A DNA stretch of 44,733 bases from Urbifossiella sp. (GCA_044220735.1 JBGAQM010000002.1:1-44733), one strand, 5' to 3'; positions 1,962 through 44,733 are shown, numbered from the stretch's first letter. The notes: generated from the sequence alone by a model not told the origin. A program made the numbers and translations.

Positions 1962-1990
1962 CACGCCGCTCCCCGGTACGAGGTTCGTGG

Positions 1991-10542: not shown

Positions 10543-12237
10543 GTGCCAGCAACTGAACCGTCAGTAACGACCGACCGCCGCGCCGGCGAGGAGCCGGTTC
10601 CCGGCTACGTCCTCGTCGAACCGCTGGGCCGCGGCGGGTTCGGCGAGGTGTGGAAGTGCGTCGCCCCCGGCGGGCTCCACAAGGCCGTGAAGTTCGTGCC
10701 CGGCGGCGGCGACCAACTCCGCCAGGAGGCCGCGGCGTTCGAGCGCGTCCGCGCCCTCCGGCACGCCTTCCTACTGTCGCTGGAGCGGGTCGAACTCGTC
10801 CACGGCGACCTGGTCATGGTGATGGAACTGGCCGACGCCCAGCTCCAGGACCGGTTCGACGAGTGCCGCCGGGAGGGGCGGCGCGGCATCCCGCGAGACG
10901 AGCTCCTGCGCTACCTCGCGGACGCGGCCGAGGCGCTCGACGTGATCACGGCGCGGTACGGACTCCAGCACCTCGACGTGAAGCCGGCCAACCTGTTCCT
11001 GATCGACGGGCACGTCAAGGTTGGCGACTACGGGCTCGTGCGGGCCCTGGGGGCGGGCCACACGGGGGCTGGCCTGACGCCGAAGTACGCCGCGCCCGAG
11101 GTCCTGCGGGGGAACGCCGACGCCCGATCCGACCAGTACAGCCTCGCGCTCGTGTACCACGAACTCCTGACGGGGGCGTTCCCGTTCCCCGGCCGGACGG
11201 CGCAGCAGTTGATGCTCCAGCACGTGAGCGCCGAGCCCGACCTGTCGCCACTTCCCGCGACCGACCGCGCGGCCGTGGCACGCGCACTCGCGAAGGTGGC
11301 GGCCGACCGGTTCCCCAGTTGCTCCGACTTCGTGCGGGCGGTGGCCTTCGCCGGGGGCGGGAACCCCGGGTCGGGACTCCTGTCGTTTCCCATGCCCGCT
11401 CCCGAGCCCCGGGCGAGTGCTGAGACGCGCACGGCCCCCGTCGGCACGATCGTGGAGCACCGGCCGGCGGTCGCGCCCCCGGTCGCCACGCCCGCGCCGG
11501 CCAACCTGCCGGTCGTGGCATTCGTCCCGCGGTTGCGCCCGCGGCCGGCTCTCGCCGGCGACCTGACCCCTGCCGAGTTCGTCGAGACGGTCGTGGCGGC
11601 AGCGCGGTCCGAGGCCGGGGCGGACGAGGTGCCCGCGGACGGGACGCGGTCGTGTCGGTTCCTGTGTACGATCTCGGCGTCGATGCTCCCGCCGAAGCTC
11701 ACTGGCGTGGCCCGGCAATTCGGGATGACGGTCGAGGAGTGGGACTCGGGGGCGGTCTTGCGCCGCCCGGTCGGGGGGCGGTCGTTCTCCGCCCCGGCGC
11801 CGGGCGAACTGTGGGTACTGATCCAGCGCGCGGCTCCCGGGCCCGAAACGGTCGCCACCGCGGGGCTAGCCGGTGACATCCCGGCGGCCGACCAACGGAG
11901 TTTGGAGGCCGCCTTGCCCGGGGTGCTGGCGGGGGTGCGCGGGGCGGTCGAGAACCTGCGCGAACGCCGGAGTCACCCGCGATACGCGGCGGGCCTCCCG
12001 GTCCGACTTCACCCGGTCGGCGACGACGGGACGGTGGGCGCCGCCGAGGACGGCGTGTGCGAGGACGTGTCCGCAGGCGGCGTGCGCGTCCTGACCCGCG
12101 CGGCCACGCCGGTGCGCAAAGTCTACCTGGAGTTTCGCAGTATCGAGGGCGTCGCCGGGAACGCCCTGCTCGCGAAGGTCGTCCGCTCGGAGTCCGGTCC
12201 CGGCGGCCACGTCGTCGCGTGCCGGTTCGACTGCTAG
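10543..12237 (+). CDS. Ser/Thr protein kinase with C-terminal PilZ domain
   Basis: Kinase motifs GRGGFGEVW, AVK, HLDVKPANL, DYG, TPKYAAPE, SDQYSLA, then a Pro/Ala linker. C-terminal ERRSHPR (RxxxR, from ~11962) and EDVSAGG (DxSxxG, ~12064) match the PilZ signature. Confidence 0.88.
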   Translation: MPATEPSVTTDRRAGEEPVPGYVLVEPLGRGGFGEVWKCVAPGGLHKAVKFVPGGGDQLRQEAAAFERVRALRHAFLLSLERVELVHGDLVMVMELADAQLQDRFDECRREGRRGIPRDELLRYLADAAEALDVITARYGLQHLDVKPANLFLIDGHVKVGDYGLVRALGAGHTGAGLTPKYAAPEVLRGNADARSDQYSLALVYHELLTGAFPFPGRTAQQLMLQHVSAEPDLSPLPATDRAAVARALAKVAADRFPSCSDFVRAVAFAGGGNPGSGLLSFPMPAPEPRASAETRTAPVGTIVEHRPAVAPPVATPAPANLPVVAFVPRLRPRPALAGDLTPAEFVETVVAAARSEAGADEVPADGTRSCRFLCTISASMLPPKLTGVARQFGMTVEEWDSGAVLRRPVGGRSFSAPAPGELWVLIQRAAPGPETVATAGLAGDIPAADQRSLEAALPGVLAGVRGAVENLRERRSHPRYAAGLPVRLHPVGDDGTVGAAEDGVCEDVSAGGVRVLTRAATPVRKVYLEFRSIEGVAGNALLAKVVRSESGPGGHVVACRFDC

Positions 12238-12255
12238 CGAGAGGTCGTCGCGGTC

Positions 12256-12292
12256 ACGCCCACCCGTTGCAGCGGGTGGGCGTTTTGCGTTT
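12256..12292 (+). terminator. Probable intrinsic terminator after the kinase-PilZ gene
   Basis: acgcccacccg-ttgcag-cgggtgggcgt is an 11-bp stem followed by tttgcgttt, starting 19 nt after the TAG. Confidence 0.7.
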
Positions 12293-12350
12293 AACAGCCC
12301 TGCGGCATCGGCCGCGACCCAGGCTTCTCCACCCCATCGCCGGGTCCGAC

Positions 12351-14894: not shown

Positions 14895-17800
14895 ATGCCC
14901 CCGTTTCAGGAATGGCTGCGGAAAGTGTTCGGTCCGCGCGCCCGCGCCGGCCGCCTCAAGGGGCGGACCGACCGCCCCGCGCTCGGGCACGAGGTGCTCG
15001 AAGACCGGACGCTGTTCGCCACCCGCGTCTGGGCGGGGCTCGGGTCCGACGGCCTCTGGAGTACGCCGGCGAACTGGACGGGGAACGTCGCCCCCCAACC
15101 GGACGACAACCTCGTCTTCCCCGCCGGCGCCGGCCGGCTGACCAACACCAACGACTACGCCGCCGACACCCGTTTCCGGTCGGTCACCATCTCGGCCGCC
15201 GGCTACGCCATCGGCGAGCAGGCCCCGGGCGCCAACCGCGTCGTCCTCCTCGACGGCGTCGTCTACCCCGCCGCGCTCGGCAACGCCGCGTTCAACGTTC
15301 CCGTCGCGCTCGGGGCGAATCAGACGTTCTTCGCCGCCAACGCGGGCGCCACGCTCACCCTCGGCGCCATCGACCTCGCGTCACTCCAGACGCTCAGCAT
15401 CGACGGCCGCGGCGACCTGGTCGCCGGCGGCGCCGTGACCGGCACCGGTGGCATCACCAAGCTCGGCGACGGCGTCCTCGCACTGGCCGGCGCGAACACG
15501 TTCGAGGGGATCGTCAACGTTACGCAGGGGAGCATCAGCCTCCGCTCCGACACCGCCCTCGGCTCGACCGTCGGCGGCACCATCGCCGGCCTCGGCACGT
15601 CGATCCTGCTCGACGGCGGCGTCACCGTGCCCGAGAACCTCGTGGTCCGTGACGTCGGCCGCGGTTTCGACCTTAGTGCGCTCGGGGCCGTCCGCAGCGT
15701 GTCGGGCACGAACCGACTGACCGGCACGATCGCGATGAACAACCACGGCAGCTTCGGCGCCGACGCCGGCAGCACGCTGATCGTCTCGGGCGCGGTCATG
15801 GTCGAGCCCAACGTGAGCGACGGCGGCCTCACCAAGTTCGGCTCGGGCACCGTCGAACTCGCCGGCAGCACGGACAACGTCATCACCGGCACGGTGACCG
15901 TGGTCCAGGGGACGCTGCGCCTCAACAAGGACCGCAGCGGGCCGGCGACGCCGCTCGCGTTCAACGCCGCCCTGATCGTCGGGGACAACCGCGACGGCGT
16001 GGCGGCGGCGGACGCCGCGCGAGTTGAACTGGGCGCCCGCGACCAGATCCCCGAGCTCAACTTCAACCGCACCGGTGTCAACTTGGTGACCGTCAACAGT
16101 ACGGGCACCCTCGACCTGAACGGGTTCGACGACCAGGTCGGCAGCCTGACGCTGCTGGTCGGGCGCAGCTCGGCCGCGAAGGTGATCACCGGTGCCGGTA
16201 CGCTGTCGACGCTGGGCGACATCACGACCAACACCTTCCAGGGGAGCAGCGGTGCGAGCCCCGCGGCGCGGATCAGCGGCAACCTGAACCTCGGCAGCTT
16301 CTTCTCCGGGGCCGGCGGCGTCGCCACGCGCACCATCGCCGTCAACGACACCGCCCTCTTCAGCCTCAACCCCGACCTCGTCATCGACGCCAACATCAGC
16401 GGCGGGCCGCAGGTGTCGCTGTCGAAGACCGGCGCCGGCACCCTGATGTTGAGCGGGAATAACACCTACCAGGGGGCGACCCGACTCACCGCCGGCGTCA
16501 CCGACATCGGCCGCGACGGCGCGTTCGGCAACAGTTCGATGGTCGCCGTGTCCGGCGGCTTCTTGCGCGCCGTCGATCCCGCCGGCAACCCCGCCGCACG
16601 AACGACTCCCGGCACCATCCCGTGGGAGTTCGACGCCGACTTCGGCATTTACGGCAGCGGCGCCCTCACGATCGGCGGGCCGGTCACGCTCACGGCCACG
16701 CGCACCATCACCACCTTCGACCCGGCCCAGGTGACGACTCTGGCCGCCGGCATCGGCGAGGGGCTGTTCCCCGGCGCCGGCCTGAACAAGCGCGGCCGCG
16801 GCGAACTGAACATCGCCGGCCCCGCGACGTTCACGGGAACGCTGGGCATCGGCACGAATAACAGCACGGCCGACGGCGGCACCCTTCGACTTTCCGGGCC
16901 GGCGGGGGCGCTGACGCGGAGCCTGAACACCATCCTCGTCGGCGTGAACAGCAGCCTGGTCCTCGACGCCGCCGCGGGGAACAACGCCGACCGCCTGCCG
17001 GACGCGGCGCCGATCGACCTGTACGGCACCCTCCGCCTGATCGGCAACGCCGGCGGCACGACCGAGACGGTCGGCCTGGTCCGGCCGCAAGGCGGGGTCA
17101 CCAGCACGATCGCGTCGGATACGACCGGGGCCGGGAGTAACCGCCTCGTCCTCGGCAGCCTGGGGGCGACCGCCACGAACGCGGCGGTCACGTTCGCGGC
17201 GGGCGGCACGCCGCTGAGCGAGGCCGGGCAGAACCAGATCAACGTGCTTCAGGCCCCGACGAACATGCCGGTGACGAACAACGTCATCGCCAACGCGGTG
17301 GTCCTGAACCCGGACGGCAGCGCCGACTTCGCCACCGTCACGACCGGCGTCGTCGGCCGGGCGATCACCGCGCTGCCGGCCGCCGGCTACGTCACCAGCT
17401 TCGACGCCGCCAACCCGACCAGTAACGTCAAGATCACGTCCGGCACCGTGACGCTGGACCGCTCGCGCACGGTGAACGCGCTGATCCTCGGGCCGGGCGT
17501 CACGGTCAACGGCGTGGACTCGACCGGCCAGCTGACCGTCGCCACCGGGCCGGTGGTGCTGTCGGCCGGGAGCCGGCTGGCGGTGCCGTTCCTGTCGATG
17601 ACGCCGAACGCCGCTGCGTCGTCGGCGAACCCGTTCTTCCTGGTCGCGCCCTCGGGCGCCGCGGTCCTTTCCAGTTCGATCGCCGGCACCACGGGCGGGA
17701 CGCTCACCAAGGGCGGGCTCGGCAACCTGATCCTGGAGGGGGCCAACCAGTTCACCAGTTCCGTCATCGTCGGCCAGGGCGTTCTGACCGTGCGGAATTC

Positions 17801-19178
17801 GATGGCACTCGGCTCGGCGTCGGCCGGCACGGCGGTCAACCTGGGCGGCCAACTCCTCCTCGACGGCAGCTTGACCGTCCTCGGCGAGTCGCTGACCGTC
17901 AGCGGCATGGGGCCGAACGCCGGCGCGTACGGCGCGACCATGTCGAGCACCGACGGCGCGCTGGCCGCCACCGGCGGGGCGAGCCAGTGGACCGGGACGG
18001 TGGCGCTCGGCGGCGTCGTCTCCATCGACGCCACCGCCCTGTTCCCGAATGGCGGGTTCACAACGTTCACCGGGTCCGGCGTTGGCGTCGCCCCCGGGGC
18101 GTCGCTGAACGTCTCCGGCCTCGTGTCCGGCGGGGCCGACATCGTCAAGATGGGCGGCGGTCAGTTGGAACTGAGCGGCACACTGGCGAACTCCGTCAGC
18201 CAGGGGCCGCGGATCAAGCAGGGCACGCTGCTGCTGAACAAGCTCCCGGGCGTGGCGGCGGTGTCGATCAACACGGCGACGATCAGCGTCGGCGACGACG
18301 TGCCCGGAAACAGCGCCACCCTCCGCTTCGGCGCCGGCTACCAGTTCGGCGCCGCCAACTTGACGAACGTGCTGACGGTGGCCAGCAACGGGACGGTTGA
18401 CCTGGCCGGCACGCACCAGGCGTTCGGCTCGATGAACCTGGTCGTCGGGCCGGCGGGCGGGGCGGCCGTGACCGTGGGTGCGGGCGGCTCGCTGACCGTG
18501 GCCTCGACCGCAGTACCCCCGTTCGGCAGCGTGACCGTCCACGCCCTCGGCGGCGGCAACCCGACCGGCGCGACCGTCAGCGGCGGCACCCTGGTGCTCG
18601 ACACGTTCAACTCCTCCGGGACCGCCCAGCAGCGCACCTACACCGTCAACGACGCCGCCGCCGGCGTGGACTTCACGATCTCGTCCGCGATCACCGACGG
18701 CACCGGCTACCGGCCGAACGGCATCATCAAGGCCGGGTTCGGCGCGATGCAGTACGACGGCGCCACGGCCAACACCTACACCGGCACGACGACGGTGAAC
18801 GACGGCACGCTGTTGCTGAACAAGTCGCCCGGCGTGCTGGCGATGCGTGGTCCGCCTCCTGGCCGCGAACCAACTCCCCGACTGGCAGGCGCTGGTGACC
18901 GTCAACGGCACCGGCCTCCTCGACCTGAACAACTTCAACGACACGATCGGCACCGCCGACGGGCAGACCGCCCTGAACGTCACCAGCGGCGTCGTCCGCA
19001 CCGGTACCGGTGCCGGCGCCGGCACGCTCACCCTCAACGGCGACCTGGTCACGACCGCCTTGTTCGGCGTCGGCACGCTGCCGGGGACGAACAACGTGCT
19101 CGCCGCGCCCGTCATCGCCGGGAAGCTCAACCTCGGCTCCGGCTACGCCCGCACGATCAACGTCAACGACCGCAATGA
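14895..19178 (+). CDS. Giant beta-helical surface protein, N-terminal part (sense lost after ~18845; last ~110 aa are out-of-frame tail)
   Basis: N-terminal WLRKVF...RPALGHEVLEDRTLFA (planctomycete extracellular LE[PD]RxL[LF] motif), then W.GLG.DG.WS..ANW. PATR / autotransporter-associated beta-strand repeats follow (ITKLGDGVLALAGANTFEG, LSKTGAGTLMLSGNNTYQG, LTKGGLGNLILEGANQF). The G/T/A/V/N-rich sequence turns R/P/H-rich after NKSPGVLAM. Confidence 0.88.
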   Translation: MPPFQEWLRKVFGPRARAGRLKGRTDRPALGHEVLEDRTLFATRVWAGLGSDGLWSTPANWTGNVAPQPDDNLVFPAGAGRLTNTNDYAADTRFRSVTISAAGYAIGEQAPGANRVVLLDGVVYPAALGNAAFNVPVALGANQTFFAANAGATLTLGAIDLASLQTLSIDGRGDLVAGGAVTGTGGITKLGDGVLALAGANTFEGIVNVTQGSISLRSDTALGSTVGGTIAGLGTSILLDGGVTVPENLVVRDVGRGFDLSALGAVRSVSGTNRLTGTIAMNNHGSFGADAGSTLIVSGAVMVEPNVSDGGLTKFGSGTVELAGSTDNVITGTVTVVQGTLRLNKDRSGPATPLAFNAALIVGDNRDGVAAADAARVELGARDQIPELNFNRTGVNLVTVNSTGTLDLNGFDDQVGSLTLLVGRSSAAKVITGAGTLSTLGDITTNTFQGSSGASPAARISGNLNLGSFFSGAGGVATRTIAVNDTALFSLNPDLVIDANISGGPQVSLSKTGAGTLMLSGNNTYQGATRLTAGVTDIGRDGAFGNSSMVAVSGGFLRAVDPAGNPAARTTPGTIPWEFDADFGIYGSGALTIGGPVTLTATRTITTFDPAQVTTLAAGIGEGLFPGAGLNKRGRGELNIAGPATFTGTLGIGTNNSTADGGTLRLSGPAGALTRSLNTILVGVNSSLVLDAAAGNNADRLPDAAPIDLYGTLRLIGNAGGTTETVGLVRPQGGVTSTIASDTTGAGSNRLVLGSLGATATNAAVTFAAGGTPLSEAGQNQINVLQAPTNMPVTNNVIANAVVLNPDGSADFATVTTGVVGRAITALPAAGYVTSFDAANPTSNVKITSGTVTLDRSRTVNALILGPGVTVNGVDSTGQLTVATGPVVLSAGSRLAVPFLSMTPNAAASSANPFFLVAPSGAAVLSSSIAGTTGGTLTKGGLGNLILEGANQFTSSVIVGQGVLTVRNSMALGSASAGTAVNLGGQLLLDGSLTVLGESLTVSGMGPNAGAYGATMSSTDGALAATGGASQWTGTVALGGVVSIDATALFPNGGFTTFTGSGVGVAPGASLNVSGLVSGGADIVKMGGGQLELSGTLANSVSQGPRIKQGTLLLNKLPGVAAVSINTATISVGDDVPGNSATLRFGAGYQFGAANLTNVLTVASNGTVDLAGTHQAFGSMNLVVGPAGGAAVTVGAGGSLTVASTAVPPFGSVTVHALGGGNPTGATVSGGTLVLDTFNSSGTAQQRTYTVNDAAAGVDFTISSAITDGTGYRPNGIIKAGFGAMQYDGATANTYTGTTTVNDGTLLLNKSPGVLAMRGPPPGREPTPRLAGAGDRQRHRPPRPEQLQRHDRHRRRADRPERHQRRRPHRYRCRRRHAHPQRRPGHDRLVRRRHAAGDEQRARRARHRREAQPRLRLRPHDQRQRPQ

Positions 19179-40100: not shown

Positions 40101-43100
40101 GTCGAGCACCGACGGCGCGACGCTGACGATCACGGCGGTGTCGGCCACCGGCTTCAGCTTCTCGGCGTCCCACGTCTACGTCGACGACCCGGCCGGCCTG
40201 CCCGACACGTTCGCCGTCACCGTCACGGCCCGGGACGACGACACCGGCACGACCTCGGCCGCGACCAGCGTGACGGTCGGCAACGTGGCCCCGGTCGTCT
40301 CCGCCGTGAGCTTCGACCGCACGACCGTCACCGAGGGCGGGTCGGTCACCGTCAGCGGCACCGTGTCCGACGTGGGGGCGCCCGACGCCCTGACCGTCAC
40401 GGTGGCCTGGGGCACCGGCGAAGGGACGAGCACCCCGGCGCTGGTTCCCACCGGCACGCCCGGGGTGTACACGTTCTCCGCGACGCACACCTACGCCGAC
40501 GACGCGCTCACCCCGAACCCGACCGACGACTACACGGTCACGGTGACGGCCGACGACGACGACGGCGGCACGTCGAACGTCGTGACCCAGACCGTCACGG
40601 TGGTGAACGCCAACCCCGTGCTGAGCCTCGTGACCCTCTCGCCGGGGTCGATCAACGAGGCCGGCAACGTCACGCTCACCGGCACCGTATCCGACGTGGG
40701 CGTGCCCGACGTGCTTGCCGTGACCGTGGTCTGGGGCGCCGGCGAGGGGACGACCGTCCTCAGCGGCGCCGCCCTCACCATGACCGGGCCGGGCACGTAC
40801 ACGTTCAGCACGACCCACCAGTACACCCACCCGCCGACCCCCGGCAGCCCGTCGGGCTCCTTCACGGTGTCCGTCACCGCGGCGGACGACGACGGCGGCA
40901 GCGCCGGCCCGGTCGACCGGACCGTGACGGTGAACAACGTCGCCCCGGTGGTCAACGGCTTCACGGTGAACGGGTCGGCCGCCCCGGCCATCACCGAAGG
41001 GCAGACCGTTACGCTGAATGGCACCTTCGCCGACCCCGGCCTCGCGGCCGGCACCGGCCAGTTCGTCGCCGTCGTGACCTGGGGCGACGGCACGACCTCG
41101 AACGCGACGGTCGGGAGCGGAACCTTCACCGCCACGCACACCTACCGCGACGACAACCCGTCCAACACCGCGAGCGACCCCTACGGGGTGTCCGTGACGG
41201 TCACCGACGGGTACGCCGGCAGCGGCAGTCTCGGCGGCGTCACGGTGACGGTCGTGAACGTCGCCCCGACGGTCGGCGGGTTCACCGTCAACGGCAGTTC
41301 GTCCTCGACGACCGTCGGCGAGGGGCAGGTGGTGAACCTGGCCGGCACGTTCTCCGACCCCGCGCTCGGCGTCGTCACCGAGTCGTTCACCGCGGTCGTG
41401 ACCTGGGGCGACGGCACCACGTCGAACGCCGTCGTGACCGGCGGCGCGTTCGCAACCAGCCACGCGTACGCCATCCAGAACGGGGTCGGGTACGCCGTCA
41501 CCGTCACCGTCGCCGACGACGACGGCGGCACGCTCGCCCTCGGCGGGCGGACCGTGGTGGTCACCAACACCCCGCCGACGGTCGTGGCGTTCACCGTGAA
41601 CGGCGTCAACGACGCGACGTCCGACGAGGGCCAACTCGTCACCCTCGCCGGCACCTTCAACGACGCCGTGCTCGCGTTCGGGACCGAGACCTACACCGCG
41701 ACCGTGTCGTGGGGCGACGGCACCACCACGACCGCGCCGGTCGCCGGCGGCACGTTCGCGTTCACCCACACCTACCTGGACGACAACGGGTTCGGGACGG
41801 GCAGCGACACCCTGCCCGTGTCCGTATCGATCACCGACAGCGACGGCGGCACCGGCAACCTCGGCGGCCGCACCGTCACGGTGACCAACGTCGCCCCGAC
41901 GGTGACCGGGTTCACCGTCAACGGCGGCACGGCCGCGACGATCGCCGAGGGCGGGTCCGTGACCGTGAGCGGCACGTTCGCCGACCCGGCGTTCGGCGTC
42001 GTGACCGAGTCGTTCACCGCGACCGTAACCTGGGGCGACGGCAGCACCACCCCGGCGACGGTGAGCGGCAACACGTTCACCGCCACCCACACGTACGCCG
42101 GCAGCAGCCCCGTCGGCGGGTTCGCCGTGTCCGCGACCGTCCGCGACGACGACGGCGGCGCCGGCACCCTCGGCGGCCGCACGGTGACGGTGAACAACAC
42201 CGCGCCGACCGTGACCGGCTTCACCGTGAACGGCGGCGGCACCGCGACGATCAACGAGGGCCAGTCGGTCAACCTGGCCGGCACATTCACCGACCTGTCG
42301 CTCGGGCTCCCAGGCGAGACGTTCACCGCCCTCGTGACCTGGGGCGACGGCACGACGTCGAGTGCGCTCGTGACCGGCGGCACCTTCGCCGCGAGCCACA
42401 CCTACGCCGACGACAGCCCGGTCGGCGGCTACCCGGTGTCGGTCGCCGTGTCCGACGACGACGGCGGCACCGGCTCGCTCGGCGGCCGCAGCGTGACGGT
42501 GAACAACCTCGCGCCGGCCGTCACCACCTTCACCGTGAACGGCGGCACCACGACGACGATCGCCGAGGGTCAGTCGGTCAGCCTCGCCGGCACGTTCGCC
42601 GACGCGGCGCTCGGGGTCCCGACCGAGACCTTCGCCGCGGTCGTGGCCTGGGGCGACGGCACCACGTCGAACGCGGTCGTCAGCGGCAACGGCTTCACCG
42701 CCTCGCACGTCTACGGCGACGACAGCCCGGTCGGCGGGTACGCCGTGTCCGTGACCGTCACGGACGACAACGGCGGGAGCGGCAGCCTCGGCGGCCGCAC
42801 GGTGTCGGTGACCAACACCGCGCCGACGGTGACCGGCTTCACCGTGAACGGCGGCACCACGGCCAGCCTCACCGAGGGGCAGACGGTCAGCCTCGCCGGC
42901 ACGTTCGCCGACGCGGCGCTGGGCGTTCTGACCGAGACGTTCACCGCGGTCGTGGCCTGGGGCGACGGCAGCACGTCGAACGCCACTGTCTCGCCCGGCG
43001 GCAACTTCACCGCGTCGCACGTCTACGCGGGGAACAGCCCGGTCGGCGGCTACCCGGTGTCTGTGAGCGTCACCGACGACAACGGCGGTACCGGCTCGCT

Positions 43101-44733
43101 CGGCGGCCGCTCGGTCACCGTCTCGAACGTCCCGCCGACGCTCAACGGCTTTACGGTGAACGGCGGCACCACGGCGACCGTCGCCGAGGGCGGGGCGCTC
43201 ACGGTCGCCGGCAGCTTCACCGACCCGGGCGTCGCGGCCGGCACCGCGACCTTCACCGTCACCGTGGCGTGGGGCGACGGCACCACCTCCAACGCGGTCG
43301 TGACCGGCGGCACCTTCAACGCCAGCCACGTCTACGCCGACGACAGCCCGGTCGGCGGATACCCGGTGTCCGTCACCGTGGACGACGGCAGCGGCGGCAC
43401 CGACAGCCTCGGCGGCCGCTCGGTGGTCGTCACGAACGTCGCCCCGGTCGTGAACCCCGGTGCCGACGTGGCGGTCTCCGCCGGGACGCGGTTCGTCCGC
43501 ACCGGCTCGTTCGCCGACCCGTCGGCCGACACCGCGACCGCCACCGTGGACTACGGCGACGGCAGCGGGCTGCAACCCCTCGCCGTCAGCGGCCGGAACT
43601 TCACCCTCGACCACACCTACGGCGCCACCGGCGTCTACCTCGTCACCGTCCTGGTGACGGACGAGAACGGCGGCGTCGGCTCGGCGTCGTTCAACATCGC
43701 CGTCGGCAACGTCGGCCCCACGCTCTCCGCCGTGGCCGACCGCACGGCCACGCCCGGCGAGTTGGTCAACTTCGCCCCGCTGGCGACGTTCACCGACCCG
43801 AACTTCGGCCCGGCCGAGGCGTACGGGTACAGCATCATCTGGGGCGACGGCTCGGCGGCCGAGACCGGCACCGCGAGCATCACGGCCCCGGGGAGCGCCG
43901 GCAGCCCGACGCGCGGGGCGATCAACGCCGCCCACCGCTTCCCACGCGAGGGCACCTACGTCGTCACCGTGACGCTCGTCGACCGCGACGGGGCGACGGA
44001 CACGAAGCAGTTCCGCGTTGCGGTCGGCACCACGAGCTTCCTCGCGGTCGCCAACGACACCGGCGGCCCGCCGGTGGTCCACGTCTACAACCCGGACGGG
44101 TCGAAGCGGTTCGACATCGCCGCCTACGCCCCGTCGTTCCTCGGCGGCGTCCGCGTCGCGGTCGGCGACATCGACGGCGACGGCACCCCGGACATCGTGA
44201 CGGCGGCCGGCCCCGGCGGCGGCCCGCACGTGCAGGTGTTCAGCGGGAAGGACGGCAGCCGGCTCCGCAGCTTCTTCGCCTACGAGCCGACGGTCATCAC
44301 CGGCATCTGGGTCGCGGCCGGGGACGTGGACGGCGACGGGTACGACGACATCGTCACCGGGGCGGGCGCCGGCGGCGGCCCGCACGTGCAGGTGTTCAGC
44401 GGGAAGGACAACCACTCGATCCACAGCTTCTTCGCCTACGCCCCGGACTTCAGCGGCGGGGTGACGGTGGCGGCCGGGGACGTGAACGGCGACGGCCGGG
44501 CGGACATCATCACCGGGGCCGGGTTCGGCGGCGGCCCGCACGTGCAGGTGTTCGACGGCGTGGACCACCACACGCGGGCCAGCTTCTTCGCCTACGAGGA
44601 CACCGTTCGCAACGGCATCTTCGTGGCGGCCGGCGACTTCGACGGCGACGGATTGGCCGAGGTGCTAACCGGCCCCGGCGCCGGCGGCGGCCCGGCGGCG
44701 CGGGTGTTCGAGGCCGAGACCGGGGTGGTGCGG
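18847..44733 (+). CDS. Giant beta-helical surface protein, main/C-terminal part (8,629 codons in window, open at right edge)
   Basis: Frame 1 is open from 18820 (after TGA 18817-18819). It reads VVRLLAANQLPDWQALVTVNGTGLLDLNNFNDTIG... to ...GGGPAARVFEAETGVVR. The ORF track lists no frame-1 plus ORF here, consistent with no stop codon. Contains dozens of PATR repeats, inserted domains, PKD-like repeats and FG-GAP repeats. Confidence 0.9.
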   Translation, partial: MVRLLAANQLPDWQALVTVNGTGLLDLNNFNDTIGTADGQTALNVTSGVVRTGTGAGAGTLTLNGDLVTTALFGVGTLPGTNNVLAAPVIAGKLNLGSGYARTINVNDRNELMVDAVLTADVSGTADVFKIGGGNLLVSGANSGWSGALSINNNAGFNQASLTVGSDTALGTGVVFPVNTIQIGADGGPRSIANRVVTQDLRLSGGNDLTLSGAVDLNAGATFTVFAPVNLAFTGGLGELVNGFNLSKSGAGTLVIASPALMSGALTINGAGGSVVVTGAGTLPNVSGVTVNVGGTLLLDNTTTAVGDRLRDAAQVTLAGGALEFRGNAAAPVSEVVGTIQANSNFSSTVTSVSQGAAATLSANLLSRQASSFVSFRGYGADLGSATNRLIFYTPLTPQLVNGVLPFATLAKAGDLDFAGYDPARGVVAAAARTTLAGAAATDSVKLTASQSISAATAVNALLIVGSNVTVGGTVPLLVGSGLLVGDGASNKLTTPVLFGGATGLVNVSTLRQPGAGPSSLELAGAVDGESGLTKLGTGRLTLAAANTYAGATTVAEGVLRASDGGALGVTAGGAASQGTTVLTGAALELDGSAANLSVGAEALTLSGAGFGYGNQTAILTSGNTGALRSLAGANSWAGSLTLPSPGGGQTLAVVFGADAGSLTLTGTLTGGGTGDVNSRLNINKVGGGTVVLAGATAATTVGAGTQGQINTTVFEGTLALNKSPGVNALPNQVQNNIQVGDNVGPAGADVLRLLASDQIADTNHLITVQGSGLLDLNGNSERIDTTLNLVSGLTASAAVTTGAGTLVINTANNITVTAQANTFGNLTPVVVSGTLALNVGGGAAATRTVTTNDTIGEVDLRLAARLTDGDGNANLQNITTAGNGRLELTNGANDFSGVFTVAAGRTRVSAAGALGASGAGAGTTVNANLSLELNGVTVVDEVLSLNGSGFGGRGALVGVPGTTSVWQQSTFVGNLITLAGAATIGVDTAATVDLSASVSIGSTITKLLPGTLRLSGGTLANSGAGGLIIAEGTVRLAKNAGVDAFGTGTLDVSANNDFGGQDADVLIQEASEQINAAANVRVSASGLWDLGGFTESLGNGSTGTVLTLFTGLAHRAHVKNGTLTLAGGTVSTSNITVSTATGGLGANMLSNSLGVWFDSDLAVNLGGSRRDFITNPAGFSQNVLQVDGVVTNGQINKTNVGGTLLLTNAGNNFGANEAQTLTAPGAAFTLTFRGATTVSLAAAAAASGGAGSVQTELENLSTIGAGNVVVTGAAGGPYTITFQGALANRDLPLLTASVGTIAELQIGGAILLQGGVVAVGNSGALGGGLSAARNSAGSLRADGGAVTISRPVDLVSGTSGAFAFTILGDAPLTFAGPVSLGNNDATITVNTPQAVTFAGSPALNVGVRTVTINTIAGNTTTLAGALVDTAGPAAGALTKSGLGTLVLAAANAYDGTTTVSAGVLRAANSAALGTTTNAVQTFGVTSTGGGSFTLTFNNQVTPALAYSATTPPTAAAVEAALNALPLVAAVGGGISVTSSTPAGPTTTYTVTFGGALAGFAQGLMTVTVTTPVSISTAAAITTAGGGGTTVSSGAALEVAGSGNTFAESLTLNGIGLGGAPTGALRLFDATPNSAEAVTWTGSIALAAATAVGVTAGGANGDTLTLGGTGTITGANSLTKFGEGTVVLGGTSNNTYTGGTVVAQGTLVLNKQDTAGRPFQPNATGTGAVTVGDEGGLDVMVYGGTAGVDQLYGLGSVTVTTSGVFDLNGKSDFIGGLVLETGRLTSAVVQTGAGALVLSADVVVNPFGPSAFAGTPATISGTLTLAGAVNANQVGTSNTAPQFTVNTGAVLTVTAAVGQLQPVGGFVPGLQESRIPRGTFPNAAAPLTPTANQLYPRLGEVFNGATPGNPWGTNEIWVYTGQFFDADGVVSFGSNIDDDAYISIDGVVVYGPFSDNTSHASGLLTLGAGVGGGWHTIDIRVGNGSGGAGANNANGWTNAFGFGIAPNGTTSTAGTSYAMPVDNGSMNLFRSASAAVPYALAKSGGGVLNLTAANTYTGGTTVSAGTLTFAGAGSAAATSAVSVAAGGVLVLDNTATNNNNRIADAAAVTLGGTLLFKGNATTASTETLGALALTAGTASTVRSEYGGVPGQALTFTASSGAVLTRNPGATLNLSTDNDFVLGVNEVRFVATGTATLPGLTGGVLPWLTVTTFSAPAAGAGAEAIDLGTDLDPGALTLSLGRLLAYDASNVKVTSGNTGLTLGSTINALLLAGSGLTANVSGTTTVTSGQVVNVGGSNSIAGGTLAFAGAEPLFFTFGANAAQTIDVTGVTAPVFTLTLPVNAPGTTSPTQGPTQVAPSAVQTTGPLNPATLTAAALRQALEALPAVGPGNVSVAQSGTVFTVTFVGALAGGAIPKLVANVTGAGVVPLVAVSAAGGGVLAVGSSVTGTTAGRKLRKGGLRLSGDNQAGGGYTGVLTVEEGELIAGHVNALGAVAAGTTVALGAALTYDLAGTVTAAAEPLTLSGTGYLNNDSGALRVVGGGTVTQAAAVTHVGANLVVSVDAASTLILTGSLTNANQNFIKAGAGTLEFGGTGKAGGGNGVFVNAGTLRLNMTGTNTMNSHLFVGSNDGGPAAAQVVYATTAGTDQIVAGANVTIYRSGRIDFNGITDTFTSLTILEGSAVNSRSVANTITSTSGLTMTGGSVDMGTGTLTLGGNVTVNAGGGPATIAGTLALGAAARTFTVNDSAARDDLVVSANITSGVAGALVKAGGGTLVLTGSNAVLGTNEVQTLTFNNAPLGGAFILAFGGAVTAPIVFDPASQANNVAAIQAALQALPTVGAGNLTVTSSSITAYTVTFGGALAGADVPAIIVALDQALGSAAAPQPTITVATPTGGVSGYQLGGGVLAVGSANALNTALARTGLQITGTSELWAYGADRTLFNSLQVGASFTLGARRDVVGSGDTALLAGPGTNDPFNLTFDATTRGTINTLTPTLTVNDPNAGVSILGNLGENTTTLAAAGNQIIKAGFGQLTLGGNNAFTGLTSVNVGTLRATSNNALGAPRTATQRVTLAAVGTFGLTVTAPAAFGGQILATGVVFTDTTTAAAMQAALNALPSVGGVGGSVTVTRVVNPGVPGTVYWFIEFGGTFAGFDVTVAVNAGTATPTVATALAGNIVGAAVGTSVATGAALVLDGSLSIGNESLSLTSGSGAGSGYVGDTGLATKGGGSLVGVNGTSTWGTGETPITLAGNTVTVGDGLVLNASVSGTVGLNKVGAGTLVLGGAAPNTYSGTTFVNDGTLALAKAAGMPAVLGAINVGDDMGTGPDVLELRASEQFLYGGATSIPVNVPSVQASGAIRTTAAMSASVTQEVQAIVFAGTTAGNTYTINAGGPIATAVTGALVNDTAAQLQARLTAPGVLAAGVTGVRVLQFGTSPNVTNVLIFTTTTNQGAISATAPTTGTTTVTTLVNAGLLGRQTVAGLTMQIGYDPTSPNTGTAARVVLDAGSTLHLAGNVTTTAEPGASGFGATPEITGGTLALLPEAATAGTARTFTLVDAALATDFTLSSAVVDGAAFLGGLTKANATGATASRLVLSGANTYTGVTNLTSGFLQAVGGSALGASNATQAAGTTVQPTGVLELSGTTIAGEHLQLFITNGGFGMQPGLYDAPGQFAVAQPSGVNNMYGTGVLRAVGAATSTWAGNVELRSQDTGNRFLAVGADAGSTLVIDGVVYGANSSNTVQGNGLVKVGTGTLEVRGANTTTVTGFGSNPATTYTGNTVVTAGTLVLNKPGTAIAGTLIVGDGRGGNDADVVRYGPLAGTDEIGAVTVTVLGSGKLDLSQAKAQGNETHLLTFHPSTAGGTFNLTYLGQPVGGAAITFSTVAATTVTSLTNALAVAFGAGNFTVANAGDAYHYAIQLTGQFAGVNVSDFGAANVALTGPSPSVAATKLRDGAGNESQTVTLGGTTGGTVTVSFNGVAGSAGTILTYTPATSPTAAQVLAHLNTIPALAGNVAVAGNPGGPFSVVYRNGLGSVDVGDTVLTFATTGGTTAVVATDGQGGNATPGTLGNEVQLLTLGGSVTGGGFLLNHAGYVTDVLPFNASAAAIQAALAALPSVGTGNVAVTALSATDFLLTFRAALDQRDVAQTTAINTLAGSAPTALLSTVLAGAPTDAVGAINLAHGADLDTGALSLVLGGNLTVYGHAGANGSATVLGSLDLVNTGRTIVVNDGAAAADLSLTASLTGQAGAAVTLSGPGTTDYAGAARHLYAGPTTLNEGTLVLNKTTGPAILGTLTVGDGVGGPAADVVRYGAAGGANQIADPVGVVVNASGLLDLANRSDAFGAAPLPTSTTGPTFGLSLQVAPGFSAAVATGTGTLTLLGSVNVTQSNAPLTTAVTPSATISGSLNFAGGVRAINVADGAAANDLVVSATIVDGTSAGLVEARLTTSQFDETTPNPGGQNQLYPRMGETSAKPPWGDNETWVYTGQYFDADGQFAFAENIDDNVLIIIDGVVRLRNTGSTPSSAFNTATTTGSTVGGNSTTTGTVAGANTFGGTTNFGMGPAGDGWHNIEIRLGNGGGGAGPVASTAGSGAPNWTAAFGLGLRDSTTNLTSVDAFDYLIPTDPGDGSRFRSVRGGIVAGGTGRVVLAGATTLTGGVSVTAGELMITAATSFGGTTAVSANAALTLAGAGTLAGTTGLTVGSNARLTLDNSTTNLPDRLPDAAPLTISGGTLSFVGNAAGSTESVGAVTLGGNTTSTVRSSTSGGTNVLTLGGLTRGAGAFVNFVGGTTDLGPAENQVKATGVTNNAVIPYAEVVGGNGAQLAAYSTAVGVRGVPPATQPTVYKTSFAEVTSPTDVVRLTRSEAISGAVTVAGLEIAGDGVSITGAGSLTVSSGTVTVTGGNPIAATIAVPLTLGAASGADDVVQIDAGATLTVTGTLTTTAGATLRKRGGGTLTLPGANAVASAVVVEEGVIRVGASNSLATAATTVSAGAALEFTADLGSFVAPLTVNGLGPNLTGALRFAPGVTSVQLGPTGNTNGGTVLTLGSTTAFAVPAGGTLTVNGVATAGAAQTATKYGTGTLVLTGNGANSGNFNLVVAEGQVNLAKTAAVAVAGTLTVGDDAGGDDADRATVTGAAGQSATLVVTSSGRFDLNGINFTANAVTLSVGPAASGDVVNTSATAATLTLNGNVTQNLAANASFGNALGAAPPARIGADGSTNLTLSLNNAARTFTVTDRTSFTALSSTSALAQPGSDDLRVNAAITDGGTGGTLTASGSGRLALAAANTLTSTGTVVTVNANTILTVRTAAGFGTTAGGTVLVSSGGTLELDSAAALNVNKALTLQGGGATESVAGGLVTRALGALRVLQGDHTWAGQVTQSTAGVGIEMPNAATTLTFTGGYNLGGQNLTFTGPGTLDFQSAVTGTGSGVPAVNIQDGTFRLSGAAGAMTGLGATNGVRVQFSGTFHVRDTGAALADRVGNTTPIELTGGRLLYEGNAAGSTETFGTVTVVAGTANVIETQTSGGTNTLTFGNLVTNTGSAVRFVGTGTALGSGNQLLFTTSPTLTNGVINRGTALSGGQLDLATVTGAGPFRVEALPAGSYYTGALSAAPANANVLITASDSSGAPAAAVNAVLVRGSGIAVTGAGTLTTAVLAAAGGANSLSGMGLTNAGETVVTVAAGATLDVGSTISGALALTKAGPGNLRLSGPSANTYSGATVVGEGPLTVAKAGGLSSSATATNPGGVSGGRIVVDGGGTGISVGNANLTLGGFFGMGGGAIPLQSINGANTWGTGATTIALNNSQVGITVDAGGTLTLAATVTTAGNGIVKTGAGTLVLAGTGANSYGGNTIVADGALRLAKTANVAAIPGATLVVNPGLSVSVVTPFDGQLAGGANVRLLDGATLALNGTSGTANELTLVGTTLDTGGGLLTVNSNVLVGESATASVLAGAVSLNNSAHNFVVPDGTAGADLVVSAALVGGGATTGLVTKLGTGQMVLSTVNTYAGSTVVAAGVLEIRNAFALGTSDGTAANGTVVNAGATLRLNAAGGPDVAVGNEVLTLNAAAFGSGAVAGGTLVALDNAAGNNAWNGPIVLASAATAGPAGLAVNVAAGTSLGLGGTISQTGTAALGLTLLGAGSTELRGTTANTYTGTTTIAAGTLTLNQSAGVVAVPGNLVVGNAAAGTTATVRLLSGDQIADSAVVSVQAGSTLDLNGNADTIGGLTLQTGTTAASVVTAGSLTLLGNLVVGTTGTGVTGVTIPASITFGTSPREIDAAGALTLAGPVGGPASAAITKQGAGAVTLAAGVTETFTGPLLVNQGTLVVDATTAAAAAVSVAAGATLAGRGTVGGPVTVLTSTLTAPATGGTLNPGTAVAGSTARLSTGSLSLTTAATFQADLSGTTADSGYDQVRVAGAVSLGGSVLSIGLGFTPPAGSVYVIIDNDGADAVTGTFAGLANGATVAAGGSTFRIFYTGGDGNDVVLVEATAPTTVYVDDATNFNIGHAPSPGEFIPDGDLGTAGDQPAVFEVTAFSTINAGVAAVATAGLVVVNAGTYGEAANVNKAATVRLTTGAAVTVDSLDAVAAATIDLGANLLTVGDATGPHTIAGTVVGAGGSLNKVGIGSLALSGANTYTGGTTVSAGRLAVNNASGSGVGSGDVLVSGGTLAGTGAVSGNVTVNSGAFLSPGDPTGTLTVGNATLAAGATFVTNLAGTAAGQFGQLASAGTIDLTAGPALQIVQLYSPADLDNYVVLHALGTGTVTGAFAGIPRTLSVVPVVTPAFTFNYAFTADGDARANDGLLARDTVPALAAPANQTVNEGALTTVTLGTLTDTDVGDSWTVDVNWGDGTAHTVFTTSTPGLLQAQHEYVEGPNGYTVTVTVTDSLAASATTSFGVTVDNVAPFSLASVVDTQDVNEGSALTLSGSFAEPGVLDPVTVTVGWGAGETTSTFAVGLLSTRAAGQTVASSTDGATLTILSVAPDNKSFGYTVTHLYRDDNPSGTATDPYAVTVFAADDDAGGTGSSTVHGIFVQNVAPVLGGVAVTAPSISEGGTATVVGTLSDVGVLDTQTLTVAWGGGETTSTFAVGAPASLAVGQTIPSSTDGATLTITAVSATGFSFSASHVYVDDPAGLPDTFAVTVTARDDDTGTTSAATSVTVGNVAPVVSAVSFDRTTVTEGGSVTVSGTVSDVGAPDALTVTVAWGTGEGTSTPALVPTGTPGVYTFSATHTYADDALTPNPTDDYTVTVTADDDDGGTSNVVTQTVTVVNANPVLSLVTLSPGSINEAGNVTLTGTVSDVGVPDVLAVTVVWGAGEGTTVLSGAALTMTGPGTYTFSTTHQYTHPPTPGSPSGSFTVSVTAADDDGGSAGPVDRTVTVNNVAPVVNGFTVNGSAAPAITEGQTVTLNGTFADPGLAAGTGQFVAVVTWGDGTTSNATVGSGTFTATHTYRDDNPSNTASDPYGVSVTVTDGYAGSGSLGGVTVTVVNVAPTVGGFTVNGSSSSTTVGEGQVVNLAGTFSDPALGVVTESFTAVVTWGDGTTSNAVVTGGAFATSHAYAIQNGVGYAVTVTVADDDGGTLALGGRTVVVTNTPPTVVAFTVNGVNDATSDEGQLVTLAGTFNDAVLAFGTETYTATVSWGDGTTTTAPVAGGTFAFTHTYLDDNGFGTGSDTLPVSVSITDSDGGTGNLGGRTVTVTNVAPTVTGFTVNGGTAATIAEGGSVTVSGTFADPAFGVVTESFTATVTWGDGSTTPATVSGNTFTATHTYAGSSPVGGFAVSATVRDDDGGAGTLGGRTVTVNNTAPTVTGFTVNGGGTATINEGQSVNLAGTFTDLSLGLPGETFTALVTWGDGTTSSALVTGGTFAASHTYADDSPVGGYPVSVAVSDDDGGTGSLGGRSVTVNNLAPAVTTFTVNGGTTTTIAEGQSVSLAGTFADAALGVPTETFAAVVAWGDGTTSNAVVSGNGFTASHVYGDDSPVGGYAVSVTVTDDNGGSGSLGGRTVSVTNTAPTVTGFTVNGGTTASLTEGQTVSLAGTFADAALGVLTETFTAVVAWGDGSTSNATVSPGGNFTASHVYAGNSPVGGYPVSVSVTDDNGGTGSLGGRSVTVSNVPPTLNGFTVNGGTTATVAEGGALTVAGSFTDPGVAAGTATFTVTVAWGDGTTSNAVVTGGTFNASHVYADDSPVGGYPVSVTVDDGSGGTDSLGGRSVVVTNVAPVVNPGADVAVSAGTRFVRTGSFADPSADTATATVDYGDGSGLQPLAVSGRNFTLDHTYGATGVYLVTVLVTDENGGVGSASFNIAVGNVGPTLSAVADRTATPGELVNFAPLATFTDPNFGPAEAYGYSIIWGDGSAAETGTASITAPGSAGSPTRGAINAAHRFPREGTYVVTVTLVDRDGATDTKQFRVAVGTTSFLAVANDTGGPPVVHVYNPDGSKRFDIAAYAPSFLGGVRVAVGDIDGDGTPDIVTAAGPGGGPHVQVFSGKDGSRLRSFFAYEPTVITGIWVAAGDVDGDGYDDIVTGAGAGGGPHVQVFSGKDNHSIHSFFAYAPDFSGGVTVAAGDVNGDGRADIITGAGFGGGPHVQVFDGVDHHTRASFFAYEDTVRNGIFVAAGDFDGDGLAEVLTGPGAGGGPAARVFEAETGVVR
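22495..31335 (+). repeat. Nine dispersed ~90-120 aa 'NEVQ' alpha/beta domains inserted in the beta-helix
   Basis: Copies start at ~22495, 23278, 25801, 27199, 28033, 28942, 30370, 30694 and 31033. Consensus NEvQtlT...gGtFtLtf.......aaa.vqaAL.aLp.vG.GNv.Vt.....ytvTF.GalAg.dv. Confidence 0.8.
24451..24940 (+). other. PA14-like inserted domain, copy 1
   Basis: GLQE...NQLYPRLGE...PWGTNEIWVYTGQFFDADGVVSFGSNIDDDAYISIDGVVV...GWHTIDIRVGNGSGGAG...WTNAFGFG. The pattern W..tG...F...DD....IDG...H.I.I resembles PA14. Confidence 0.65.
32140..32721 (+). other. PA14-like inserted domain, copy 2
   Basis: GLVE...NQLYPRMGE...PWGDNETWVYTGQYFDADGQFAFAENIDDNVLIIIDGVV...GWHNIEIRLGNGGGGAG...WTAAFGLG. Confidence 0.65.
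39223..44030 (+). repeat. About 15 tandem PKD/Ig-like domains
   Basis: Units of NVAP...EG..V.L.GTF.D......V.WGDG......F...H.Y.DD....V.V.V.DDDGG. The most similar units start at 41887, 42196, 42505, 42814, 43126 and 43435 (309-312 nt spacing). Confidence 0.85.
44040..44733 (+). repeat. FG-GAP/VCBS-type calcium-blade repeats (156-nt period), partial
   Basis: GGVRVAVGDIDGDGTPDIVTAAGPGGGPHVQVF, GDVDGDGYDDIV, GDVNGDGRADII, GDFDGDGLAEVL. GGGP motifs sit at 44215, 44371, 44527 and 44683. Confidence 0.9.

What the first reader, a model, noticed from the sequence alone, without database searches (positions are those of the whole stretch)
14895..44733. Hidden giant gene of about 9,950+ codons: a planctomycete beta-helical mega-adhesin
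Seen: about 1,317 codons in one frame plus 8,629 in the next form one continuous repeat architecture, still open at the window edge. The ORF track shows only the first piece and antisense shadows. Order: LEDRTL export motif, ~7,700 aa PATR stalk carrying inserted domains, cap, short second beta-helix, ~15 PKD-like domains, FG-GAP blades. Known: PATR repeats are typical of autotransporter passengers, and LE[PD]RxL motifs mark planctomycete extracellular proteins. Inference: this is a roughly megadalton surface fibre, possibly over 100 nm long if the stalk is continuous. No autotransporter barrel or classical signal peptide is visible, so it may use a non-type-V export route and be a structural candidate for planctomycete surface fibres.
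Basis: partly seen in the sequence, partly recalled or inferred. Interest (0 to 1): 0.85.

Follow-up and report, generated by a model that had tools for sequence, protein, structure and literature searches.

The report
Megadalton barrel-less planctomycete surface fibre protein
One gene of about 10,050 codons, split in this sequence only by 56 missing bases that other samples of the organism carry, encodes a protein predicted to form a surface rod over 100 nm long that likely glues the cell to sugar-coated surfaces; it has no ordinary signal peptide and a complete close relative has no export barrel, so it would leave the cell by a separate, untested export machine likely shared with dozens of similarly tagged proteins.

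Summary
The giant gene is real. The frame change at 18845/18846 is a 56-base loss: contigs from three independent studies carry 56 extra bases there, which restores the frame. A congeneric genome encodes an intact, collinear 10,032-aa orthologue (74% identical, 0.97 MDa, no cysteine) that ends in a six-bladed FG-GAP propeller with no autotransporter barrel. Anatomy: basic LExR leader without a hydrophobic core; about 6,260 residues of autotransporter-type beta-helix carrying nine phage-virion-like inserts and two PA14-like inserts; 15 PKD domains; propeller. A 10,787-aa orthologue swaps the PKD/propeller end for RTX repeats. In a closed relative, 48 of 51 propeller-bearing ORFs carry the leader. 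No canonical type I or type V exporter was found, but the secondary-SecA/M50-HlyD cassette described in 2015 is present elsewhere in the genome and is the best candidate exporter (inferred, not linked by position). The gene is patchy (5 of 251 family genomes) and deleted in a closed relative, so it is not the general planctomycete fibre. LExR-tagged 1-MDa proteins are already known in this family: a new variant of a known kind.

The parts
14895..15017 (+). Basic N-terminal leader ending in the LExR motif (LEDRTL at 14997-15014); no hydrophobic core
   Evidence: best 11-residue hydropathy 1.03 against 2.65 and 2.57 for two window proteins with evident signal peptides; no PF07595 score
15018..18845 (+). 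Beta-helical PATR stalk, first part (frame +3)
   Evidence: PF12951/TIGR02601; 75% identical to orthologue in G001
18845..18846 (+). Site of a 56-base loss that shifts the frame in this assembly
   Evidence: runs X2, X3, X4 (three studies) each have a contig with 56 letters between these positions; orthologue has 19 residues here
18847..37906 (+). Beta-helical PATR stalk, main part (frame +1); whole stalk about 6,260 residues outside the inserts
   Evidence: a 701-aa model matches IcsA passenger Z 14.2, rmsd 4.6, 217 aligned
22489..31338 (+). Nine ~105-aa inserts shared with phage virion proteins: 22489-22800, 23272-23613, 25795-26163, 27193-27534, 28027-28365, 28936-29256 and three in tandem 30364-31338
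   Evidence: profile hits Bxb1 gp23 (9D93) E 1e-33; fold Z 13.4, rmsd 2.6, 100 aligned; PHROG tail sheath/major tail; positions
24421..24954 (+). PA14-like insert 1 with a conserved Asp-Asp pair
   Evidence: Foldseek to MpIBP PA14 prob 0.89-0.97 but E about 0.1; Cea1A Z 7.9
32110..32736 (+). PA14-like insert 2 with the same Asp-Asp pair
   Evidence: 45% identical to insert 1
37907..39225 (+). Cap-like module, short second PATR helix, second cap-like module
   Evidence: sequence; PATR hits; not folded
39226..44025 (+). Fifteen PKD-type Ig domains
   Evidence: PF18911/PF00801; motif count
44026..44733 (+). FG-GAP beta-propeller, cut by the contig end about 80 residues before the stop
   Evidence: PF01839/PF13517; orthologue's complete domain folds as six blades closed by the last strand, pLDDT about 95

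Best explanation
This is one gene of about 10,050 codons for a cysteine-free protein with a short basic leader, a predicted beta-helical rod of over 100 nm bearing likely sugar-binding and phage-like side domains, 15 Ig-like domains and a terminal propeller; it is likely a cell-tethered fibrillar adhesin that would be exported by the secondary-SecA/M50-HlyD machine rather than by Sec and a barrel. Proposed order of events (all inferred): the LExR leader is read in the cytoplasm by the PqqD-like domain of the M50-HlyD protein and may be clipped by its intact HExxH site; the short SecA pushes the unfolded chain through an HlyD/TolC-type conduit; outside, the helix folds rung by rung with its inserts hanging off the loops; the last strand closes the propeller, which binds calcium and holds the fibre on the cell surface, leaving the helix and PA14-like domains to reach polysaccharides or other cells in flocs and biofilms. 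My odds by step: intact gene in the organism 0.93; surface-exposed fibre 0.85; adhesion as main job 0.7; export by this cassette 0.55; propeller as the cell-side anchor 0.5.
For: Intact gene. Fold: (helix alignments span both kinds of insert). No Sec signal. No barrel in the complete orthologue and no PF03797 match in 0 of 5 genomes. No HlyD over the TIGR01843 cut-off in 10 genomes and no HlyB over cut-off in 5, although G001, G011 and G136 hold many RTX repeats. Cassette present: GAF-like/HlyD, HlyD-WD40 and PqqD-M50-HlyD on G000:C224 (HExxH); a second, short SecA in 4 of 5 genomes beside a long one and as the only hit in the incomplete G000; many TolC-family genes. Shared pathway: in closed genome G011, 43 of 51 propeller ORFs have the leader by a fixed pattern, 5 more by eye; their middles include S8 proteases, a GDSL lipase, matrixin, cyclophilin and a nucleotidase. 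In G000, 21 of 29 closed leader-tagged ORFs hold the propeller in frame and 5 more have it downstream of a frame break. The end module is exchangeable: RTX in G136, dockerin in 7 of 16 other hosts of the insert. In T. immobilis, motif-plus-FG-GAP proteins are SignalP 'OTHER' and several are found only in the SDS-soluble envelope fraction (PMC8567305 supplement rows). Leader-tagged giants of Chlorobium are expressed and lie beside a TolC gene (10.64898/2026.03.19.712371 passages).
Against: The cassette is not next to the gene in G000, G001, G021 or G136. Leader-tagged ORFs lie within 10 kb of the M50-HlyD gene in only 2 of 32 loci, no more than the genome-wide density. They lie about 10 kb from the short SecA in G000, G001 and G011 (one genus, one event) but not in G021 or G136. 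Kamneva et al. name no substrate in the passages read. Secretins are also present, 3-6 matches per genome. The PA14 assignment rests on a low-confidence part of the model (pLDDT about 50-60), with no Pfam or PDB sequence hit. In several G011 proteins the propeller is near the N-terminus, not the end, which weakens a strict anchor role. The propeller's closest folds by Z are generic six-bladed ones. No expression data exist for this gene.
Confidence: 0.5

Rival explanations
1. Same fibre and same exporter, opposite polarity: the N-terminus stays caught in the outer-membrane channel (as recalled for LapA-type adhesins) and the propeller is the distal lectin-like tip; the M50 protease would release the fibre by cutting the leader.
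For: Top Foldseek rows for the propeller include glycan-binding propellers (UmbA4 with teichuronic acid 9oee E 4.5e-10; PAL/PVL lectins). RTX ends, as in G136, mark proteins exported C-terminus first (established for type I secretion).
Against: The same propeller sits on enzymes and on proteins of about 340-420 aa, where a distal tip makes little sense; the leader is only 8-41 residues from the Met and has no folded retention domain.
Confidence: 0.2
2. The protein leaves by another route (type II secretion or a divergent ABC-type type I system) and the M50-HlyD cassette serves small peptides.
For: Secretins in 5 of 5 genomes; ABC transporters with HlyB-like scores below cut-off; the M50 protein's best NCBIfam match is a RiPP leader peptidase (NF041824, E 8e-56, below cut-off); no positional linkage.
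Against: Type II secretion needs Sec or Tat entry, and the leader has no hydrophobic core; no type I HlyD over cut-off in 10 genomes.
Confidence: 0.15
3. The fibre is protective rather than adhesive: a spacer against grazing or a decoy, with the phage-like inserts binding surface glycans or occupying phage receptors.
For: Nine inserts homologous to phage tail-tip, capsid and sheath domains; patchy presence and clean loss in a relative.
Against: The insert is a common module (12,902 clusters) found in many surface proteins; PA14-like and PKD domains are typical of adhesins (established).
Confidence: 0.1
4. The gene is truly broken in the strain this genome came from (a pseudogene), although intact in its relatives.
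For: The window itself lacks the 56 bases; no X1 contig bridges the site; a relative has lost the gene.
Against: In X1, whose long contigs match the window with no differing letter, the contig reaching 18845 goes on for 55 further letters; no stop in 8,629 codons downstream; other genes of this assembly also show frame breaks (4 breaks in 3 of 75 genes).
Confidence: 0.05

Closest known systems
LExR (RRLxxExLExRxLLA / LxLExLExRxxP, Pfam PF07595) surface proteins of planctomycetes, e.g. Tuwongella immobilis (PMC8567305)
   Same: Basic leader with the motif, no SignalP-type core, size up to about 1.1 MDa; GMBLW1_40430 (288 kDa) has motif + PATR + FG-GAP in the supplement.
   Different: T. immobilis's largest ones are described as integrin-beta (Calx-beta) arrays; this one is a ~6,260-residue PATR helix with inserts. 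The leader does not score on PF07595.
Type Va autotransporter passengers (IcsA, Ssp, pertactin, YfaL)
   Same: PATR repeats, right-handed beta-helix (Z 14.2 to IcsA), no cysteine, side domains inserted in loops.
   Different: No Sec signal, no C-terminal barrel, several times longer, ends in PKD domains and a propeller.
Giant LEPRxLL proteins Cag_663/Cag_665 of Chlorobium chlorochromatii (10.64898/2026.03.19.712371)
   Same: N-terminal LEPR-type motif, very long predicted beta-helix, inserted domains, shown there to be expressed.
   Different: They lie beside TolC and SapC genes and use haemagglutinin-type repeats; here no exporter gene is adjacent. Homology of their inserts to these was not tested.
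RTX adhesins exported by type I secretion (MpIBP, LapA)
   Same: No Sec signal, Ig-like extender run, PA14 sugar-binding domain (MpIBP), calcium-binding C-terminal module; the G136 orthologue ends in RTX repeats.
   Different: Stalk is a beta-helix; window and G001 proteins have no RTX end; no canonical HlyB/HlyD found.
Secondary SecA_DEAD + Peptidase_M50/HlyD + GAF/HlyD locus (Kamneva et al. 2015, PMC4452313)
   Same: All components are present in this genome (C224, C474).
   Different: Split into two places and unlinked to the giant gene; the paper's passages read name no substrate.
Mycobacteriophage Bxb1 gp23 tail-tip cage and capsid C-terminal domain (PDB 9D93, 9D9W)
   Same: The nine inserts share sequence (E 1e-33) and fold (Z 13.4).
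   Different: Here they decorate a bacterial beta-helix; no Pfam model covers them in this library.

Membership tests
Planctomycete LExR surface proteins | Motif [L]xxExLExRxx[PL] near the N-terminus after a basic stretch | tested here: met
   residues 30-41; aligns with 31 other leaders, L-E-x-R invariant
Planctomycete LExR surface proteins | Score over the PF07595 cut-off | tested here: inconclusive
   no hit for this leader, but no locus passes the cut-off in 5 genomes rich in such leaders, so the model is too narrow for this family
Planctomycete LExR surface proteins | Located on the cell surface | not testable with these tools
   only by analogy with T. immobilis fractionation
Type Va autotransporter | Beta-helical passenger with PATR repeats | tested here: met
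Type Va autotransporter | N-terminal Sec signal peptide | tested here: not met
   hydropathy 1.03 against 2.57-2.65 in two controls
Type Va autotransporter | C-terminal 12-stranded barrel | tested here: not met
   complete orthologue ends in a propeller; PF03797 in 0 of 5 genomes, control rang in 3 of 14
Two-partner secretion (TpsA) | Sec signal followed by a TPS domain | tested here: not met
   no signal; no TPS-domain family reported for residues 1-1319
Two-partner secretion (TpsA) | TpsB transporter in the genome | tested here: inconclusive
   PF03865 over cut-off in 0 of 5, but the control rang in 0 of 14
Canonical type I (RTX) substrate | No Sec signal, no cysteine | tested here: met
Canonical type I (RTX) substrate | C-terminal RTX repeats | tested here: not met
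   absent in window and G001; present in the G136 orthologue
Canonical type I (RTX) substrate | Cognate HlyB/HlyD pair | tested here: not met
   TIGR01843 over cut-off in 0 of 10 genomes; TIGR01846 in 0 of 5; PrtD/LssB-type models were not searched
Substrate of the secondary-SecA/M50-HlyD cassette | Cassette genes present in the genome | tested here: met
Substrate of the secondary-SecA/M50-HlyD cassette | Gene lies beside the cassette | tested here: not met
Substrate of the secondary-SecA/M50-HlyD cassette | Export depends on the cassette | not testable with these tools
   needs mutants
PA14 lectin domain | PA14 fold | tested here: inconclusive
   Foldseek prob 0.89-0.97, E about 0.1; Z 7.9 to Cea1A; model pLDDT low there
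PA14 lectin domain | Asp-Asp calcium site (DcisD, recalled) | tested here: met
   Asp-Asp kept in 6 of 6 copies in window, G001, G136; cis geometry not testable
FG-GAP/VCBS propeller | DxDGDG-type blades forming a closed propeller | tested here: met
General planctomycete fibre or stalk subunit | Conserved across planctomycetes | tested here: not met
   5 of 251 family genomes, 0 of 400 further phylum genomes with this query; deleted in G011

The most novel reading that the evidence does not exclude
Gemmataceae run an undescribed one-step secretion pathway with a two-ended code: an N-terminal LExR leader read and cut by a PqqD-M50-HlyD protein and driven by a short SecA, plus an exchangeable calcium-binding C-terminal module (FG-GAP propeller, RTX or dockerin) that tethers the cargo. 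It serves about 50 proteins per genome, and this 1-MDa barrel-less autotransporter-type helix, studded with phage-virion domains and lectin domains, is its largest kind of cargo.
Probability: 0.35. Interest if true: 0.85.

Novelty: new variant of a known kind. Interest (0 to 1): 0.55.

Why it matters
How planctomycetes export their LExR-tagged surface proteins has been open since the motif was described in 2004 (as cited in PMC8567305). This protein sharpens the question: an autotransporter-type helix of about 6,260 residues with neither Sec signal nor barrel, in genomes without a canonical type I system. The near-complete coupling of leader and propeller gives small test substrates (340-800 aa) in the same family, and names two genes to knock out. 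It also shows a common, Pfam-less domain shared between phage virions and bacterial surface fibres, and is a clear case of an assembly loss hiding a 30-kb gene.

Tried and rejected
Extending the contig within G000: no other contig overlaps its end, only 66-75% paralogues in the part of the output shown. Contigs of X2 and X3 run past the end but their letters were not shown. No RNA holder was listed. Complex prediction of the PqqD-like domain with the leader gave no answer (score 0.01); it is not evidence either way. The protein atlas gave no result. Co-occurrence across 201 phylum genomes: M50-HlyD in 57; PF07595 at E<=0.01 in 18, of which 9 have the cassette; the motif model is too weak to decide. 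Positional linkage of cassette and leader-tagged genes: 2 of 32 loci, no enrichment. The two insert types are unrelated. PA14 insert: no PDB sequence hit. A paper naming the Bxb1 domain was not found (passages of PMC13252515, and PMC13419713, held nothing on it). Earlier findings by words and by sequence for the giant itself: none. Programmed frameshifting was considered and dropped because other samples carry the missing bases.

Full report
1. The observation. The window is the whole of contig C285 of a 6.25-Mb, 571-contig, 76%-complete genome. Frame +3 is open from the ATG at 14895 to 19178, and frame +1 from 18820 to the contig end, 8,638 codons without a stop. The repeat-type sequence runs 1,317 codons to 18845 and resumes at 18847 for 8,629 codons. 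PATR repeats score in all five segments up to 39252, PKD after that, FG-GAP at the end. Homologues of a neighbouring-pathway gene from this genome are titled Gemmataceae or Urbifossiella at 93% identity, which places the organism in that family (inference).

2. The break is a loss of 56 bases. Of four runs laid on 17500-20500, three from three different studies (X2, X3, X4) each have a contig with 56 letters between 18845 and 18846, with 167, 80 and 255 letters on the shorter side. Fifty-six bases turn frame +3 into frame +1. In X1, flagged as a possible source, no contig bridges the site, but the one reaching 18845 goes on for 55 more letters. The assembly has other breaks: 4 frame breaks in 3 of 75 genes compared, this one included. 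I read it as an assembly loss (0.93).

3. Orthologues. G001 (same genus, 96% complete) has a 10,032-aa frame, collinear over its length, 7,268 of 9,874 aligned residues identical, with 19 residues at the break, 0.97 MDa, no cysteine; it extends about 80 residues past the window's end and stops after the propeller. So the window's protein would be about 10,045 aa. Differences by codon position are 0.195, 0.146 and 0.340 over 9,855 codons, as expected for a gene under selection. G136 (another genus) has 10,787 aa, 4,671 of 9,364 identical to G001, with 11 phage-like and 2 PA14-like inserts, but after about residue 8,200 it has no PKD run or propeller and ends in RTX repeats. G021 has a 7,181-aa frame (one run of X from unknown bases) with 3 inserts and the propeller. 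G022 and G006 are cut by contig ends. With residues 301-800 as query at E<=1e-30 the gene was found in 5 of 251 family genomes, this one included, and 0 of 400 further phylum genomes (few candidates are scored per genome, so this is 'not found with this query'). A partial protein named from a 'Chthoniobac...' genome is 53% identical over 74% of a 701-aa segment. The closed genome G011 (same genus) is syntenic on both sides but lacks about 33 kb, including the GH32 gene and all but the last ~200 codons of the giant, which remain fused behind a GNAT fragment.

4. Anatomy. A 701-aa model (mean pLDDT 70, pTM 0.54, 19 sequences) aligns to autotransporter passengers (IcsA Z 14.2, rmsd 4.6, 217 aligned), with alignments spanning both inserts, so the helix appears to continue across them. 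Nine ~105-aa inserts match Bxb1 gp23 by sequence (E 1e-33) and fold (Z 13.4, rmsd 2.6, 100 aligned) and PHROG tail families; they have no Pfam match yet a profile finds 12,902 clusters; of the best 150, 29 have a strict LExR leader and 21 have three or more PATR-like motifs. Two inserts look like PA14 domains: Foldseek probabilities 0.89-0.97 to the MpIBP sugar-binding domain but E about 0.1, Z 7.9 to Cea1A, Asp-Asp pair kept in 6 of 6 copies; the model is weak there, so this is likely, not shown. The orthologue's end folds at pLDDT about 95 into six blades, the last strand completing the first blade; it is related to integrin-alpha blades by sequence (E 4e-12) and its top Foldseek rows include glycan-binding propellers. 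The stalk has 6,262 residues outside the inserts; at 0.48 nm per rung and 20-30 residues per rung (recalled values) that is 100-150 nm, plus about 60 nm for 15 PKD domains at about 4 nm each (recalled).

5. Export. The leader has no hydrophobic core (1.03 against 2.65 and 2.57 for two window proteins with evident signals; two others gave 2.06 and 1.88; 43 leaders of G011 gave 0.32-1.81). No barrel family match in 0 of 5 genomes; no HlyD over cut-off in 10; no HlyB over cut-off in 5; TolC-family genes and secretins are present. G000:C224 carries three genes: GAF-like/HlyD, HlyD-WD40, and PqqD-M50-HlyD with an intact HExxH; a short SecA lies on C474, and G001, G011, G021 and G136 have a short and a long one. 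I looked for this cassette from recall (note 94); eight earlier unchecked notes of this scan propose the same machine for LEPR giants in other genomes and led me to the short SecA and to the 2015 paper. Their claim of adjacency does not hold in this family: 2 of 32 loci; near the short SecA only in one genus. The link is therefore inferred from elimination and from analogy.

6. A genome-wide family. From the G011 matches listed (19 matches over four genomes were not listed; one listed place was not fetched) I fetched 40 stretches holding 51 propeller ORFs. A fixed pattern finds the leader ahead of the propeller in 43; like for like (first 250 residues, basic context) it is 32 of 51 against 12 of 471 other frames. 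Five of the remaining 8 have a degenerate motif by eye; the other 3 are a frame-broken gene, one cut by my fetch, and the remnant above. Thirty-four of 51 end in the closing-strand motif; in several the propeller is N-terminal. Of these ORFs 42 were scanned: their middles include proteases, a lipase, a nucleotidase, cyclophilin and Ig arrays. Conversely, in G000 21 of 29 closed leader-tagged ORFs hold the propeller in frame, 5 have it behind a frame break and 3 lack it. In 16 other hosts of the insert, chosen for having the leader, 7 carry a dockerin near the end. This is why I read the end module as an exchangeable tether.

7. What is known. Passages read: PMC8567305 (52 motif proteins in T. 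immobilis, 8 of its 10 longest, up to 10,566 aa) and rows of its supplementary table (first 18 places per term), where motif-plus-FG-GAP proteins are SignalP 'OTHER', several S3-only, and GMBLW1_40430 has motif, PATR and FG-GAP with signal in 1 of 3 S3 replicates; PMC5177795 and PMC12673574 (giant genes common in the phylum); PMC11573180; 10.1101/2023.11.21.568195; 10.64898/2026.03.19.712371 (its supplements are closed and may bear on whether its inserts match these); PMC4452313. Studholme 2004 was not read, only cited. No paper linking the leader to the propeller or to the cassette, or describing this architecture, came up in searches; the library lacks most subscription papers.

8. Verdict. 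Observation confirmed; interpretation partly supported. A real, rare, ~1-MDa leader-tagged surface protein, most likely a fibrillar adhesin, not an autotransporter and not the general planctomycete fibre. New variant of a known kind; interest 0.55, rising to 0.85 if the two-ended export code proves true.

Noticed in passing
G011:C1:2665004-2665945 (L026:10004-10945): A deletion of about 33 kb relative to G001 has left the last ~200 codons of the giant's propeller fused behind a GNAT acetyltransferase fragment in one open frame.
   Followed up: yes
window 22489-31338; P0057-P0206: The ~105-aa insert is a very common module (12,902 clusters) with no Pfam model here; hosts include leader-tagged giants, apparent phage structural proteins and cysteine-rich giants that look eukaryotic; weak hits to mastigoneme proteins (9UFE, E 0.03-0.08).
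   Followed up: partly
G136:C18 36085-3713: The orthologue ends in RTX repeats; this genome has 126 RTX matches but no type I HlyD over cut-off.
   Followed up: partly
G000:C224:57-7015 (L062): GAF-like/HlyD, HlyD-WD40 lipoprotein and PqqD-M50-HlyD genes in a row; in G001 and G011 they lie next to grpE-dnaJ-groEL chaperone genes.
   Followed up: partly
G000:C474:496-16833 (L105): Short secondary SecA about 9 kb upstream of two leader-plus-propeller genes; same layout in G001 and G011, not in G021 or G136.
   Followed up: yes
window 12057-14504 (+): GH32 beta-fructosidase-like gene with a signal peptide directly upstream; also upstream in G001 and lost with the giant in G011.
   Followed up: partly
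window 5715-12237 (+): DusC-like gene followed by two Ser/Thr kinase genes (one with WD40 repeats) where G001 has other genes between dusC and GH32.
   Followed up: partly
window 1991-5733 (-) and 3-2090 (-): Two-gene cluster of the planctomycete DUF1592/DUF1552 type (label recalled, no NCBIfam hit) and a secreted kelch-like/fibronectin-III protein cut by the contig start.
   Followed up: no
G000 contigs C7, C14, C179, C507, C172, C38, C570: Several other leader-plus-propeller genes are split by frame breaks in this assembly, against 1 of 51 in the closed genome G011.
   Followed up: partly
G011 L048-L051: Four paralogues with a longer leader and the propeller near the N-terminus, followed by other domains (cut by my fetch).
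   Followed up: no
window 42575-42883: One contig of run X5 joins 42883 back to 42575 (309 bases, one PKD unit), which may be repeat-number variation or an assembly loop.
   Followed up: no
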